Assembly: GCF_045037415.1 (NCBI RefSeq) | Contig: NZ_CP173438.1 | Strand: one strand, 5' to 3' | DNA length: 64,000 nt | Source of the DNA: Escherichia coli | Lineage (GTDB): Bacteria; Pseudomonadota; Gammaproteobacteria; Enterobacterales; Enterobacteriaceae | Part shown: one piece after another, positions 33,901-42,900 of the stretch | How the letters are laid out: the number at the start of each line of letters is the position of its first letter | How positions within the stretch are numbered: position 1 is the first letter of the stretch | Program-made: the position numbers

Positions 33901-36900
33901 CCGCGCCGATTTATTGCCGGAATGGCAGGCCTTTTTGCATCAGCATTCGAAATTCGCGTCTGCAAGTTCAGTGAAAAGCACGCTCTACTCCCGTCTCTAT
34001 AACCTTATTGACCGTGGCATGGTTACTCGCGAAGGTATGAGCTATTGCATCACCGATACCGGACGCGCCTGGCTTGGAAAAGCGTTGCCAGCACGAAAAA
34101 GCGATCCGCGTAAAGAGCTGCTGGAAGCGGTGAAACGCTACAACGAGCAGCAAAAAGAGCTGCTGCGCGAACAAATCAGCACAATGAACCCGTACAAATT
34201 TGAACAACTGGTCGGTCAATTACTGGAAGCAATGGGCTACGAGCAGGTCGAAGTGACCAAAGCCTCAGGCGATAAAGGTGTGGACGTGATTGGTCAGGTG
34301 CAGGTCGGCATCACCACTATTACCGAAGTGGTGCAGGTCAAAAGAATGCAGAACACCATCACTCGACCGTATATCGACCAGTTGCGCGGAGCGTTGCCTT
34401 ACCACAAGGCCATTCGCGGTACGCTCATCACCACCGGGAAATTTGCAGCGAAATGTGCAGAAGCGGCGCTCTTTCCGGGGGCCGCGCCCATTACGCTTAT
34501 CGACGGCGATCGCTTACTGGAACTGTTAATCGAAAATAACGTCGGCATTCGCCGCAGCAATGCAGTGGAATTGCTGGATGTGGATTTGCAGTTGTTTGAT
34601 GAGCTGGAGATGGATTAAAGGGCGAAATCCGCCGCCTCAACCATTACAATAGCGACCCAATTTATCTGAACAGAGTTCATCATGGCCAAAGCACCAACTA
34701 AAAAAGCCAAAGCAAAAAAAGGCTTTGAAGAAACATTATGGGATACCGCAAACCAACTTCGCGGTAGCGTTGAGTCCTCCGAATACAAGCACGTGGTGTT
34801 AAGCCTCGTGTTCCTGAAATTCATCAGCGATAAGTTTGAAGCACGCCGCAAAAAAATGATTGCCGATGGGCAAGCTGACTTCCTTGAGATGGAAGTGTTC
34901 TACCAGCAGGACAACATTTTCTACCTGCCGGAAGAGGCGCGCTGGTCGTTTATCAAACAAAATGCCAAACAGGACGATATTGCGGTTCGTATTGACACCG
35001 CCCTCTCGACAATTGAGAAACGTAACCCAACCCTGAAAGGCGCGCTGCCAGACAACTACTTCAGCCGTCAGAATCTGGAAACCAAAAAACTGGCGTCACT
35101 GATTGATACCATCGACAACATCGAAACGCTGGCACACGAAACTGACGTTGAAACGTTGTCGAAAGAAGACCTGGTCGGACGCGTTTACGAATACTTCCTC
35201 GGTAAGTTTGCCGCAACCGAAGGCAAAGGCGGTGGAGAGTTCTACACGCCCAAATGTGTGGTCACGCTGTTAACTGAAATGCTCGAACCCTTCCAGGGCA
35301 AAATTTATGACCCGTGCTGCGGCTCGGCAGGGATGTTCGTGCAGTCGGTGAAGTTCGTCGAGAGCCATCAGGGTAAAAGCCGTGATATCGCGCTGTATGG
35401 TCAGGAACTGACAGCCACGACGTATAAACTGGCAAAAATGAACCTCGCCATTCGCGGTCTTTCAGCTAACCTCGGCGAACGCCCGGCAAACACTTTCTTT
35501 AGCGACCAGCACCCGGACCTGAAAGCCGACTACATTCTGGCGAACCCGCCGTTCAACCTGAAAGACTGGCGCAATGAAGCCGAATTAACCGAAGATCCAC
35601 GCTTTGCCGGTTATCGTATGCCGCCAACCGGTAACGCCAACTACGGCTGGATTTTGCATATGCTCTCCAAGCTGTCGGCTAACGGCACAGCAGGTTTTGT
35701 GCTGGCAAACGGTTCGATGAGTTCTAACACCAGCGGTGAAGGCGAGATCCGTGCACAGATGATCGAAAATGATCTGATTGACTGCATGATCGCCCTACCT
35801 GGACAGTTGTTCTACACCACGCAGATCCCGGTGTGTTTATGGTTTATGACCAAATCGAAGGCTGCCGACCCGGCCAAAGGTTATCGTGATCGTCAGGGCG
35901 AGACGCTGTTTATTGATGCGCGTAACCTCGGCACCATGATTAGCCGCACAACTAAAGAGTTAACGGCGGAAGATATTGCCACAATCGCCGATACCTACCA
36001 TGCCTGGCGCAGCACGCCGGAAGAACTGGCTGCACGGATTGCGCGTGGTGACAGCAAGCTGGAAAAATATGAAGACCAGGCAGGCTTCTGCAAAGTTGCG
36101 ACCCTGCAAGATATTAAAGATAACGACTACGTTCTGACACCGGGCCGCTATGTGGGTGCAGCCGAGCAGGAAGAAGACGGCGTGGCATTTGAGACCAAAA
36201 TGCGTGAATTGTCGAAGACGTTGTTTGAGCAGATGAAGCAGGCGGAAGAACTGGATCGTGCGATTCGCCAGAATCTGGAGGCGCTGGGTTATGGGGAGTA
36301 AGTGGTGTATATATCGCTTAGGTGATATAGCTGAATTTTCATACGGAAAAATGCCTAAAAAGGAGTTTGTTGGTACAGGTGACTATGTCATTTTTTCAGG
36401 ATATAAATACACAGAAAGCTACCCTGAAAAAAATACTTCGGCAGGTGAGTTAATTGTTGTTGCCCGAGGTGTTGGTGGAACTGGCGATGTTAAAATAACG
36501 ACTAGAGATTGTTATTTAACAAATTTGTCCATTAAAATAAATTTGGATGAAACAAAAGTAAGAAAAGAATATTTTTATTATCTGTTTCTACAGAGTAATT
36601 TACGATATCTTGATAGCGGTTCTGCTCAAAGCCAAATAACCATCAATGATCTAGCGAATGTAGAAATATCTGCTCCTTCGCTAAATGTTCAAGATTTAAT
36701 AGTCAAGAGTCTCAAAGCTTTTGATGACAAAATCACAACACTTTCATCCATGAACCAAACCTTGGAACAAATGTCCCAAACCCTGTTCAAATCCTGGTTT
36801 GTGGATTTTGATCCAGTGATTGATAACGCTCTGGATGCAGGAAATCCAATCCCGGAAGCCCTGCAAACTCGCGCCAAATTGCGTCAAAAAGTACGTAATA

Positions 36901-39900: not shown

Positions 39901-42900
39901 CAGGCACTGGCAATGTATTCCCGCATTGATGCCACCAACTTTGAAGATATTCAGCAATCGGTAATAGAAGTTAAAAACCATCTCGATTTGTTGGGGCAAG
40001 TCTTTTACGAATTTGACAGTCGGGATTATTTTAGTGGTGAGCCACAAGCGCAATTATCCTGCCTCAACCGCGCGGCGGAATTTGTTCTGCGTACCCAGAA
40101 AGTTGAACGTCGTTTTATGGGACTGGTTAAACGCATGAAAGCCGCCTACGACGTCTGCTGCGGCAGCGAAGCATTATCACAGACAGAACGTGACTATATT
40201 CACTATTATCTTGCTGTTCGTTCAATTGTTTTCAAACTGACGAAAGGTGACGCACCGGATGTTACCCAGATGAATGCACGCGTTCGTGAAATGATTGCAG
40301 AAGCGTTAAAAGCTGATGGCGTAGAAGAAATTTATTTTCTTGGCGATAAAAAAGCGGAATCCATCGATATTTTTGACGAAGATTATCTGGCGCGAATTAA
40401 CAAGATCAAACTTCCGGCAACGAAGATCCAGTTATTACAAAAATTACTGGAAAAAGCGATCAGCGACTTCAAGAAAGTGAACCAGTTGCAAGGGATTAAC
40501 TTCACCCGCCGCTTCCAGGCGATTATAGATCGTTATAATGAGCGGCGAGAAGATGATGTACTCAACGGTGAAGAATTCGATACATTCAGTCAGGAAATGA
40601 CCGATATTATCTATGATATTAAAACCGAAATGGGCACCTGGGCCGATTTAGGCATTGATATTGAAGAAAAAGCCTTTTTCGACATTCTTGCTCATATGCG
40701 CGATAAATATCAGTTCACCTATGACGATGAAAAAATGCTGTCACTGGCAAAAGAGATGAAAAGCGTGGTTGACAACACATCTAAATATCCTGACTGGAGT
40801 AAACGCGATGATATTAAAGCGAAACTGAAAGTTGAACTTATTCTGCTTCTACACAAGCATAAGTTCCCGCCAGTAGCGAATGATGATGTTTATATGGGTG
40901 TGCTGGCACAGGCAGAGAATTTTAAAGAACACCATATGAGTTCTTTAAATTAATTATGAAGGCCGGATACACTTTGTTATCCGGCCATTCTGAATTAACG
41001 TTAATTTCCCTTCCAGATCTTTCCAGTAATGCTTTTATTATTTTCTATTTTTAGCTGGACTTTTCCCATATTTACTGATGATATATCCAGGTATTTAGCG
41101 CGATGCGGATGTGTTGGCGCACACCCGCACCGCTCATCACAATCACTATTTATAGGGAATAGCAGTTATGACTGACACGCATTCTATTGCACTACCGTTT
41201 GAAGCAGAAGTCTCCCCGGCAAATAACCGTCAATTAACCGTGAGTTATGCGAGCCGCTACCCGGATTACAGCCGTATTCCCGCCATCACCCTGAAAGGTC
41301 AGTGGCTGGAAACCGCCGGTTTTGCCACCGGCACGGCGGTAGATGTCAAAGTGATGGAAGGCTGTATTGTCCTCACCGCCCAACCACCCGCCATCGAAGA
41401 GAGCGAACTGATGCAGTCACTGCGCCAGGTGTGCAAACTGTCGGTGCGTAAACAAAGGCAGGTGCAGGAGTTTATTGGGGTGATTAGTAGCAAAACGCCA
41501 CGCTAAGTTTCTCTCCCCTTCCCCACACGGGAAGGGGAATTTTCCCCCTCACTCCACATCCTCCCTGCGTAACCCAATATCCCTCAACCGCTCATCACTC
41601 ATCTGCTGTAACACTCGTCGGGTCTGCATTTGCCGCCGCCAACGCCTCACCGCCTGCCAGAGTTGCACAAGTCTGATAAACGGCGTTTTGGCTTTGTTTT
41701 CGTAAAATTCCATCTGCTGCCTCCTCATCTTTCAGAGGCTTCATCATCCGTCTTCTGGCAGTTCACAATACAGATGCAAATATTAGTTTTATTTAACATA
41801 CAGACAGATTAAAACAGCATCTGCATCCGGTTTTTTAGCCTCATCTGTACCGGTTTTTCTCTCTGTATGGTCCAAATAAGGAATACAGCATGACGCGTTA
41901 TCAACATCTGGCGACTCTACTTGCCGAGCGGATTGAGCAGGGGCTGTATCGTCACGGGGAGAAATTGCCGTCGGTGCGCAGCTTAAGTCAGGAGCACGGC
42001 GTCAGCATCAGCACCGTGCAGCAGGCGTACCAGACGCTGGAAACGATGAAGCTCATCACTCCGCAGCCGCGTTCGGGGTATTTTGTCGCACAACGTAAAG
42101 CCCAGCCGCCAGTGCCGCCGATGACGCGTCCGGTGCAGCGCCCGGTGGAAATTACCCAGTGGGATCAGGTACTGGATATGCTGGAGGCGCATAGCGACAG
42201 TTCCATTGTTCCGTTAAGCAAAAGCACGCCGGATGTCGAAACGCCCAGCCTGAAACCGCTGTGGCGGGAGCTAAGCCGGGTGGTGCAGCATAATCTGCAA
42301 ACCGTTCTCGGTTATGACTTGTTAGCCGGTCAGCGAGTGTTGCGAGAGCAGATTGCCCGCCTGATGCTCGACAGCGGCTCGGTAGTCACCGCCGATGACA
42401 TCATCATTACCAGCGGCTGCCATAACTCGATGTCGCTGGCGTTAATGGCGGTGTGTAAACCGGGCGATATTGTCGCGGTCGAATCCCCCTGTTATTACGG
42501 TTCGATGCAGATGCTGCGTGGCATGGGCGTGAAAGTGATTGAAATCCCAACCGATCCAGAAACAGGCATCAGCGTTGAAGCGCTGGAACTGGCGCTGGAG
42601 CAGTGGCCGATTAAAGGCATCATTCTGGTGCCAAACTGTAATAATCCGCTGGGATTTATTATGCCGGACGCGCGCAAACGGGCCGTTCTCTCTCTCGCTC
42701 AGCGTCATGATATTGTGATTTTTGAAGATGATGTCTACGGTGAACTGGCAACGGAGTATCCGCGCCCGCGGACCATTCATTCCTGGGATATCGACGGGCG
42801 AGTGCTGCTGTGCGGCTCGTTCAGTAAAAGTATTGCACCTGGCCTGCGCGTGGGCTGGGTCGCACCGGGGCGCTATCACGATAAACTGCTGCATATGAAA

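What the first reader, a model, noticed from the sequence alone, without database searches (positions are those of the whole stretch)
34682..40953. Type I R-M system in hsdM-hsdS-hsdR order, likely a non-IA family
All three subunits are intact and co-directional, with hsdS overlapping the hsdM stop and hsdR following after a 94-bp gap (presumably its own promoter). M-S-R order is characteristic of type IC-like systems rather than EcoKI-like IA. The gap contains no ORF, so there is no prrC-like anticodon nuclease insertion.
Basis: partly seen in the sequence, partly recalled or inferred. Interest (0 to 1): 0.5.

Follow-up and report, generated by a model that had tools for sequence, protein, structure and literature searches.

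The report
Known type ID restriction system EcoMII
This is an intact, already characterised type I restriction-modification system (EcoMII, StySBLI/type ID family) in the well-known "immigration control region" of an E. coli ST131-type chromosome, so it is ordinary.

Summary
hsdM (34682-36301), hsdS (36291-37595, 11-nt overlap) and hsdR (37690-40953, after a 94-bp ORF-free gap) are intact and co-directional.

The window is E. coli and is 100% identical to ST131 strain EC958 over 28917-64000. The locus lies in the immigration control region between yjiA and yjiR. The three proteins are identical to those of EC958, Nissle 1917 and ATCC 25922. Published knockout primers for EC958_0078-0077 match the ends of hsdM-hsdS exactly, so this is the published system EcoMII.

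It is not type IA, IB or IC. M and R are about 24-27% identical to EcoKI and EcoCFTI, and only distantly related to EcoR124I. M and R are 91-94% identical to Klebsiella and Salmonella counterparts, while S is only 36% identical. The published R subunit is 92% identical to StySBLI, the type ID prototype.

The M-S-R order and non-IA call are right, "IC-like" should read type ID, and an hsdR promoter in the gap is unsupported. The gap holds two conserved stem-loops, one terminator-like.

The source paper contradicts itself on the target motif. Its Table S5, the ATCC 25922 methylome and domain similarity favour RTAC(N4)GTG over AAC(N4)CTTT.

Already known; low interest.

The parts
34682..36301 (+). 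hsdM: N6-adenine DNA methyltransferase subunit, 539 aa (M.EcoMII, WP_001029745.1)
   Evidence: ORF. Pfam HsdM_N 4e-24 and N6_Mtase 1e-105. Motif I DPCCGSAG at nt 35309-35332 and motif IV NPPF at nt 35543-35554. Same protein accession in Nissle 1917, EC958 and ATCC 25922. The published qPCR primer for EC958_0078 hits 34869-34888.
36291..37595 (+). hsdS: specificity subunit, 434 aa (S.EcoMII, WP_000535012.1). It has two target-recognition domains separated by a conserved central region and followed by a conserved C-terminal region. It overlaps hsdM by 11 nt.
   Evidence: Sequence. Two Methylase_S hits at aa 3-160 and 231-377. The variable domains are 33-34% GC against 47-51% in the conserved parts. 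This exact allele is in 425 of 5426 complete E. coli genomes. Only nt ~460-700 and ~1216-1305 of the gene are shared with other alleles, 868 genomes in all.
37596..37689 (+). hsdS-hsdR intergenic region, 94 bp, no ORF. It holds stem-loop 1 (37604-37623, GC-rich, followed by TTTCTGG, terminator-like) and stem-loop 2 (37624-37667). A GGAG ribosome-binding site precedes the hsdR ATG.
   Evidence: Terminator-like hit. RNA fold -41.1 kcal/mol, z = -3.4. Stems are almost invariant and loops variable among E. coli, Klebsiella and Salmonella loci. No promoter-like hit in the gap.
37690..40953 (+). hsdR: restriction/translocase subunit, 1087 aa (WP_000058884.1)
   Evidence: ORF. NCBIfam TIGR00348 470.7 bits. 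Pfam HSDR_N, SWI2_SNF2, T1R_D3-like and T1RH-like_C. Nuclease D168/E181/K183 aligns with the EcoR124I catalytic D...ExK. Helicase motifs are intact. 91-92% identical to Klebsiella and Salmonella HsdR.
33452..34618 (+). Adjacent Mrr-like type IV restriction endonuclease gene, 388 aa (EC958_0079 'Mrr', WP_000800831.1). It travels with hsdMSR as a four-gene cassette and is probably an independent system.
   Evidence: Pfam Mrr_cat at aa 243-359, 4e-29. No confident domain in the N-terminal ~240 aa. PADLOC PDC-S02 full length, 8e-207. Only 31% identical to K-12 Mrr, over the C-terminal 173 aa. The same gene (82% aa identity) sits 63 bp upstream of hsdM in Klebsiella.
34645..34650 (+). Conserved TACAAT hexamer 31 nt upstream of the hsdM ATG: a candidate -10 element for hsdM-hsdS transcription (inference only)
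   Evidence: The Mrr-hsdM spacer is conserved between E. coli and Klebsiella, and TTACAATAGC is invariant. The consensus scan did not call a full promoter here.

Best explanation
The locus is EcoMII, a chromosomal type I restriction-modification system of the type ID (StySBLI) family. It occupies the E. coli immigration control region (yjiA-brnTA-mrr-like-hsdM-hsdS-hsdR-symE/symR-yjiS-yjiR) in an ST131-type genome. Mechanism, by homology with characterised type I enzymes: HsdS carries two target-recognition domains and binds a bipartite asymmetric DNA sequence. An M2S1 complex methylates one adenine (m6A) in each half-site on hemimethylated host DNA. When the site is unmethylated, as on incoming phage or plasmid DNA, two HsdR subunits join the complex, pull DNA through using their SF2 ATPase motors, and cut at a distance with their PD-(D/E)xK nuclease. 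Methylation by this exact gene pair has been shown experimentally in EC958. Restriction activity is inferred from the intact HsdR. The target is most probably 5'-RTAC(N4)GTG-3' / 5'-CAC(N4)GTAY-3'. Its two methylatable adenines are separated by 6 bp, the spacing typical of type ID. hsdM and hsdS are translationally coupled through an 11-nt overlap. How hsdR is transcribed across the structured 94-bp gap is not established.
For: The window is 100% identical to EC958 over 28917-64000. The M, S, R and Mrr-like protein accessions are the same in EC958, Nissle 1917 and ATCC 25922. The deletion primers for EC958_0078-0077 match window 34678-34696 and 37581-37599. Forde et al. 2015 (PMC4659465) report an hsdM-hsdS-hsdR operon with Mrr adjacent, an R subunit 92% identical to StySBLI R, hsdM transcribed above dam level, and loss of one bipartite m6A motif on deletion. 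Family pattern measured here: M 93.5% and R 91-92% identical to Klebsiella and Salmonella counterparts, S only 36%. Identity to EcoKI and EcoCFTI is 24-27% or less, and similarity to EcoR124I is weak. The locus content and frequency fit the published survey. The type ID hsdS-hsdR junction is in 863 of 5426 genomes, about 16%, against a published 12% in the ICR plus 3% in hotspot 37. For the motif: in Table S5 the EcoMII knockout loses RTAC(N4)GTG/CAC(N4)GTAY. ATCC 25922 has the identical system, has no type I genes in its thrW or leuX islands, and shows RTAC(N4)GTG as its only bipartite motif (PMC12679398). The second domain of the other EC958 type I S subunit (EcoMIII) resembles the AAC-reading domain of EcoKI (30% identity, E = 5e-24). 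The window's S does not (18%, E = 0.003).
Against: The main text of Forde et al. assigns AAC(N4)CTTT to EcoMII, the opposite of its own Table S5. I could not compare directly with StySBLI, EcoR9I or KpnAI sequences, nor consult REBASE. ATCC 25922 was checked for other type I systems only at the three usual islands, not genome-wide. Restriction (DNA cleavage) by this system was not found demonstrated in the papers read.
Confidence: 0.93

Rival explanations
1. The system belongs to the type IC (EcoR124I/EcoprrI) family, as the M-S-R gene order suggested to the first reader.
For: The gene order matches IC. Of the subunits with solved structures, EcoR124I R is the only HsdR hit, and EcoR124II M scores higher than EcoKI M.
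Against: The similarity is far below within-family levels. HsdR scores 89 bits in two short stretches and HsdM 136 bits. Within-family comparison here gives 91-94% identity. No type IC system was found in 9,040 surveyed ICR loci (PMC12707154). The R subunit is 92% identical to the type ID prototype.
Confidence: 0.02
2. The family assignment is the same, but the recognition sequence is AAC(N4)CTTT, as stated in the main text and figure legends of Forde et al. 2015.
For: The main text, the Fig. 3 legend and the discussion of PMC4659465 all say so. AAC(N4)CTTT could also give a 6-bp adenine separation if the A next to G in AAAG is the methylated base.
Against: Table S5 of the same paper shows the opposite. 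The Fig. S1 legend also mislabels the RTAC(N4)GTG sites as M.EcoMII recognition sites. ATCC 25922 has the identical S subunit, yet shows RTAC(N4)GTG and no AAC(N4)CTTT. No EcoMIII was found at its thrW or leuX islands. The AAC-like recognition domain is in EcoMIII S, not in this S.
Confidence: 0.18
3. hsdR has its own promoter in the 94-bp gap, as Pres does in type IC, so R is expressed independently of M and S.
For: A discrete gap with a ribosome-binding site, strongly conserved across genera. A TAAAAT hexamer lies in the loop of stem-loop 1 in E. coli.
Against: No -35/-10 pair was detected in the gap. The TAAAAT hexamer is not conserved; it is TTAAAT in Klebsiella and AAAAAT in Salmonella. 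What is conserved are two stem-loops, the first terminator-like. These fit partial termination or read-through attenuation, or mRNA processing, at least as well.
Confidence: 0.35
4. The system only methylates in practice: restriction is silent or hsdR is poorly expressed.
For: Only methylation has been shown in the papers read. A terminator-like hairpin precedes hsdR. Some strains carry IS1 inside hsdS.
Against: HsdR is full length with every catalytic motif intact. It is conserved at 91-92% identity across genera, which argues for selection on function.
Confidence: 0.1

Closest known systems
EcoMII of E. coli ST131 EC958 (EC958_0078/0077/0076; Forde et al. 2015, mBio, PMC4659465)
   Same: Identical DNA and proteins, and the same flanking genes. 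The published knockout and qPCR primers match the window.
   Different: Nothing: this is the same system. The only open point is which of the two EC958 N4 motifs it reads, because the paper's text and its Table S5 disagree.
StySBLI, EcoR9I and KpnAI: the type ID family of type I R-M systems (Titheradge et al. 2001, as cited in PMC3874165 and PMC12707154)
   Same: The published R subunit is 92% identical to StySBLI R. The locus is allelic, in the ICR. M and R are highly conserved across Escherichia, Salmonella and Klebsiella, with a variable S. The favoured motif has a 6-bp adenine separation.
   Different: The specificity is different, with new recognition domains. The spacer is N4 rather than the N6 of the three classical members.
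EcoR124I / EcoprrI (type IC)
   Same: hsdM-hsdS-hsdR gene order. The same overall domain architecture and PD-(D/E)xK plus SF2 motor mechanism.
   Different: Only remote sequence similarity. IC systems are plasmid-borne or sit elsewhere in the genome, and none is reported in the ICR. There is no prrC gene. The HsdR C-terminal domain is of the HindI-like T1RH-like_C type.
EcoKI (type IA) and EcoAI/EcoCFTI (type IB), the other ICR alleles
   Same: The same chromosomal slot between yjiA and symE/yjiR, and the same three-subunit mechanism.
   Different: Gene order is R-M-S. M is 24-27% identical and R is barely alignable. The accompanying type IV genes also differ: K-12 Mrr and McrBC with EcoKI, GmrSD-like with EcoCFTI.

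Membership tests
Type I restriction-modification system | Three separate subunits: an N6-adenine methyltransferase M, a two-domain specificity subunit S, and an R subunit with PD-(D/E)xK nuclease and SF2 ATPase | tested here: met
   Pfam, NCBIfam and PADLOC hits and intact motifs.
Type I restriction-modification system | Bipartite asymmetric recognition sequence with m6A on both strands, dependent on hsdM-hsdS | not testable with these tools
   Published: deleting exactly this hsdM-hsdS (primers map to the window) abolishes one N4 bipartite motif in EC958.
Type ID (StySBLI family) | High sequence identity of HsdM and HsdR to StySBLI, EcoR9I or KpnAI | tested here: inconclusive
   The prototype sequences were not retrievable, so there was no direct comparison. 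Published: R of the identical EC958 system is 92% identical to StySBLI R. Measured here: 91.6% to a Salmonella HsdR, and 91.2% (R) and 93.5% (M) to Klebsiella counterparts.
Type ID (StySBLI family) | Genetic complementation or subunit exchange, and antibody cross-reaction, within the family only | not testable with these tools
   These are the classical family criteria (PMC3874165). They need experiments.
Type ID (StySBLI family) | 6 bp between the two methylated adenines | tested here: met
   RTAC(N4)GTG allows only A3 and the A opposite T10, giving 6 bp between them, the same as the interval of 6 tabulated for StySBLI, EcoR9I and KpnAI. This holds if the motif assignment (about 0.8) is right. 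AAC(N4)CTTT would allow 6, 7 or 8 bp.
Type ID (StySBLI family) | Allelic location in the enterobacterial immigration control region, with hsdM-hsdS-hsdR order | tested here: met
   The locus lies between yjiA and yjiR. The order is the same in Klebsiella. The published survey lists ID as one of three ICR families.
Type IA (EcoKI family) | High identity of M and R to EcoKI; R-M-S order | tested here: not met
   M is 24% identical. R is 25% identical over 219 aa, E = 4e-5. The gene order differs.
Type IB (EcoAI family) | High identity of M and R to EcoAI or EcoCFTI; R-M-S order | tested here: not met
   M is 27% identical. R has no significant alignment (E = 0.012).
Type IC (EcoR124I family) | High identity of M and R to EcoR124I or EcoprrI | tested here: not met
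   HsdR scores 89 bits in two short stretches and HsdM 136 bits against the EcoR124 proteins in the PDB.
Type IE (KpnBI family) | High identity to KpnBI subunits | not tested
   No KpnBI sequence was available. From my memory of Chin et al. 2004, KpnBI hsdM is about 2.6 kb, much longer than this 1.6-kb hsdM, and is at most 33% identical to IA-ID members. That would be incompatible with 92% identity to StySBLI.

The most novel reading that the evidence does not exclude
The Mrr-like (PADLOC PDC-S02) gene and hsdM-hsdS-hsdR may form one co-inherited and co-regulated four-gene defence cassette. In this reading, the conserved double stem-loop between hsdS and hsdR acts as an attenuator that sets the R:M ratio, a regulatory device not described for type I systems. 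Transcription of hsdMS would start in the conserved Mrr-hsdM spacer or upstream of the Mrr-like gene.
Probability: 0.15. Interest if true: 0.35.

Novelty: already known. Interest (0 to 1): 0.1.

Why it matters
The system sets a DNA-uptake barrier and a methylation signature in clinically and biotechnologically important E. coli lineages: ST131, the probiotic Nissle 1917 and the reference strain ATCC 25922. It is already catalogued and partly characterised, so finding it in this window adds nothing new. The one practical point concerns the recognition motif. Anyone engineering these strains by pre-methylating or site-depleting plasmids should note that the motif printed in the main text of the source paper is probably swapped with that of the second EC958 type I system. 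RTAC(N4)GTG is the better-supported target.

Tried and rejected
- **Prototype papers:** I tried to read Titheradge 2001 (PMC60208), Chin 2004 (PMC524312) and Murray 2000 (PMC98998). None is held, so there was no direct comparison with StySBLI or KpnBI.
- **Cluster names:** Members of the 90% clusters carry only generic names, with no REBASE names.
- **Nissle 1917 methylome:** Two literature searches found nothing usable.
- **Rfam scan of 32000-45000:** It found only SymR. Nothing matched in the hsdS-hsdR gap.
- **Promoter scan:** No sigma-70-like site in either intergenic gap of the cassette.
- **EC958 coordinates:** My first guess for the EC958 locus (60-105 kb) was wrong, because the old locus tags do not follow RefSeq coordinates.
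- **Motif counts in the window:** Nine RTAC(N4)GTG-type sites and fifteen AAC(N4)CTTT-type sites. None of the former lies inside hsdMSR. The numbers are too small to be informative.
- **EcoMIII family:** I considered whether EcoMIII's family could settle the motif through the adenine-spacing rule. EcoMIII is about 24% identical to IA, IB and this system, so its family is unknown and the rule cannot be applied.
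Full report
**Observation**

The ORF list shows three co-directional long ORFs on the + strand: 34682-36301 (539 aa), 36258-37595 and 37678-40953. Reading the junctions shows an ATG at 36291, 11 nt before the hsdM stop (TAA at 36299-36301). It also shows an ATG at 37690, preceded by GGAG. RefSeq uses these same starts in identical genomes, giving hsdS of 434 aa and hsdR of 1087 aa.

The gap between hsdS and hsdR is 37596-37689, which is 94 bp. No ORF of 20 aa or more lies within it, so there is no prrC-like insertion.

All three proteins have the full type I domain complement and intact catalytic motifs:
- HsdM has HsdM_N and N6_Mtase, with DPCCGSAG and NPPF.
- HsdS has two Methylase_S domains.
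- HsdR has HSDR_N, SWI2_SNF2, T1R_D3-like and T1RH-like_C. Its D168/E181/K183 aligns with the EcoR124I nuclease triad. GATGCGKS, DEAH, TGTP and QTISRVNR are all present.

**Where the window comes from**

A 10.4-kb query around the locus matches E. coli chromosomes. Many ST131 strains, Nissle 1917 and others are 100% identical, and 699 of 5426 complete genomes carry at least 80% of the query.

The annotated neighbourhood runs tsr-btsT-yjiX-yjiA | brnA-brnT, restriction endonuclease, hsdM, hsdS, hsdR, symE, yjiS, yjiR, rpn | mdtM-yjiN. This is the classical immigration control region (ICR).

The window is 100% identical to ST131 strain EC958 over 28917-64000. It is slightly less similar to Nissle 1917 outside the locus. 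An ST131-type genome is therefore the likely source.

**Identity with a published system**

EC958, Nissle 1917 and ATCC 25922 all encode the same four proteins here:
- WP_001029745.1 (M)
- WP_000535012.1 (S)
- WP_000058884.1 (R)
- WP_000800831.1 (Mrr-like)

Forde et al. 2015 (PMC4659465) describe M.EcoMII (EC958_0078) in an hsdM-hsdS-hsdR operon. S is EC958_0077, R is EC958_0076, and Mrr (EC958_0079) is adjacent. They report the R subunit as 92% identical to StySBLI R, and hsdM as transcribed above dam level.

Their deletion primers for EC958_0078-0077 match window 34678-34696 and 37581-37599. Their qPCR primer matches 34869-34888. The finding is therefore EcoMII itself.

**Family**

| Comparison | HsdM | HsdR |
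|---|---|---|
| EcoKI (type IA, K-12) | 24% identical | 25% over 219 aa |
| EcoCFTI (type IB, CFT073) | 27% identical | not significantly alignable |
| EcoR124I/II (type IC, PDB) | 136 bits | 89 bits in two stretches |
| Klebsiella pneumoniae / Salmonella enterica members of the same 90% clusters | 93.5% (Klebsiella) | 91.2% (Klebsiella), 91.6% (Salmonella) |

HsdS is only 36% identical to the Klebsiella HsdS, and the similarity is confined to the conserved central and C-terminal regions. Conserved M and R with a variable S is what defines a type I family (PMC3874165).

Three further points place it in type ID:
- The published identity to StySBLI R is 92%.
- A 2025 survey found only IA, IB and ID, and no IC, among 9,040 ICR loci (PMC12707154).
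- The frequencies agree. The type ID hsdS-hsdR junction is in 863 of 5426 genomes, about 16%. The survey reports 12% in the ICR plus 3% in hotspot 37.

I could not retrieve the StySBLI, EcoR9I, KpnAI or KpnBI sequences, so the direct comparison with the prototypes rests on the published figure.

**Recognition sequence: a conflict in the literature**

The main text of Forde et al. says that deleting EcoMII abolishes A(m6)AC(N4)CTTT, and that deleting EcoMIII (a second type I system on GI-thrW) abolishes RT(m6)AC(N4)GTG.

Their Table S5 shows the reverse. The 'RM.EcoMII KO' column has NA for RTACNNNNGTG and CACNNNNGTAY, and keeps AACNNNNCTTT at 841 of 847 sites. The 'RM.EcoMIII KO' column has NA for AACNNNNCTTT and AAAGNNNNGTT. 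The columns are parsed correctly, because GAGACC is NA under the EcoMI knockout. The Fig. S1 legend also mislabels the RTAC(N4)GTG sites as M.EcoMII recognition sites.

Three independent lines favour RTAC(N4)GTG for the window's system:
1. ATCC 25922 has the identical M, S and R. It has no type I genes in its thrW island (which carries vat) or its leuX island (which carries McrBC and an Eco31I-like system). A nanopore methylome finds GATC, CCWGG, GAGACC/GGTCTC and RTAC(N4)GTG as its motifs, in accord with REBASE, and no AAC(N4)CTTT (PMC12679398).
2. The second recognition domain of EcoMIII HsdS is 30% identical (E = 5e-24) to the first domain of EcoKI HsdS, which reads AAC. The window's HsdS gives only 18% (E = 0.003).
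3. RTAC(N4)GTG necessarily places the two target adenines 6 bp apart. This is the interval tabulated for all type ID enzymes.

I put RTAC(N4)GTG at about 0.8. The caveat is that ATCC 25922 was not scanned genome-wide for other type I systems.

**Expression**

The 11-nt hsdM/hsdS overlap implies translational coupling. This is an inference, by analogy with EcoKI (PMC3510504 abstract).

A sigma-70 consensus scan finds none in the gap. Instead the gap folds into two adjacent stem-loops:
- 37604-37623: GCCCCUG/CAGGGGC followed by UUUCUGG, flagged as terminator-like.
- 37624-37667.

The fold energy is -41.1 kcal/mol, with z = -3.4.

In an alignment of E. coli, Klebsiella and Salmonella loci, the stems are almost invariant while the loops differ. 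The TAAAAT hexamer in loop 1 is not conserved. This fits a structural role, such as partial terminator, attenuator, RNA stabiliser or protein-binding palindrome, at least as well as a promoter. With only four sequences and no compensatory changes, it is suggestive only.

Upstream, the 63-bp spacer between the Mrr-like gene and hsdM is conserved between E. coli and Klebsiella. It contains an invariant TTACAATAGC, giving a candidate -10 at 34645-34650. Sequence upstream of the Mrr-like gene is not conserved.

**Neighbour**

The 388-aa 'restriction endonuclease' at 33452-34618 has a C-terminal Mrr_cat domain and an N-terminal ~240 aa without a confident Pfam match. It is only 31% identical to K-12 Mrr, over the catalytic domain. 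It matches the PADLOC candidate PDC-S02 over its full length.

The same gene, at 82% identity, precedes hsdM with the same spacing in Klebsiella. The unit that moves therefore appears to be a four-gene cassette. Forde et al. and the EcoSal review already note that type IV genes accompany each ICR type I family.

**Verdict**

The feature is real, intact and correctly delimited. It is a known, named and partly characterised system (EcoMII, type ID) in a textbook locus.

Novelty: already known. Interest: low. The only small additions are the probable motif swap in the source paper and the conserved structured hsdS-hsdR spacer.

Noticed in passing
PMC4659465 main text versus its Table S5 (concerns window 34682-37595): The paper that characterised this system contradicts itself. 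The text assigns AAC(N4)CTTT to EcoMII and RTAC(N4)GTG to EcoMIII, while Table S5 shows the reverse. The ATCC 25922 methylome and recognition-domain similarity support Table S5.
   Followed up: yes
window 33452-34618 (+): An Mrr-like type IV endonuclease gene of 388 aa. It has a C-terminal Mrr_cat domain, an N-terminal ~240 aa with no confident domain, and a full-length match to PADLOC PDC-S02. It travels with hsdMSR as a four-gene cassette in both E. coli and Klebsiella (82% aa identity, same 63-bp spacer).
   Followed up: partly
window 37604-37667: Two adjacent stem-loops in the hsdS-hsdR gap. The stems are almost invariant and the loops vary across E. coli, Klebsiella and Salmonella. The first is terminator-like. 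Their function is unknown.
   Followed up: partly
L006 1-9267 (Salmonella enterica contig ABTSKO010000007.1): An HsdR 91.6% identical to the window's is not preceded by an intact type ID hsdM/hsdS. Upstream lie a NERD/UvrD-like helicase gene, a short 191-aa Methylase_S gene, a 417-aa N6_Mtase/Eco57I-like gene and about 2 kb with two unannotated ORFs. The conserved stem-loop spacer is still present. It looks like a rearranged or hybrid locus.
   Followed up: no
hits H1-H5 and H96, corresponding to window ~36291-37595: Several otherwise identical genomes have an insertion of about 0.78 kb in this locus. In H96 it lies in hsdS and is annotated as an IS1 family transposase. These appear to be natural knockouts of the specificity subunit.
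   Followed up: no
window 41097-41506: The symE toxin gene (41168-41506, +) with its antisense SymR RNA (41097-41173, -; Rfam 83 bits) lies immediately downstream of hsdR. The brnT/brnA toxin-antitoxin pair (about 32679-33255, -) lies immediately upstream of the cassette. An Rpn-family nuclease gene is at 43545-44501 (-). All are known ICR companions.
   Followed up: partly
L016 1366-7332 (EC958 GI-thrW; not in the window): The second EC958 type I system, EcoMIII (R-M-S order, with an AbiE toxin-antitoxin pair alongside), is only about 24% identical to IA, IB and ID subunits, so its family is unassigned here. Its HsdS is a normal 415 aa and aligns over both halves with two-domain S subunits, whereas the paper describes 'a single TRD'.
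   Followed up: partly
window 16001-18000 and 56001-58000: Low-GC patches (0.42 and 0.39) coincide with yjjQ-bglJ and with the DUF2686 pseudogene/ytiD/iraD region respectively. They are ordinary features of this part of the E. coli chromosome.
   Followed up: partly
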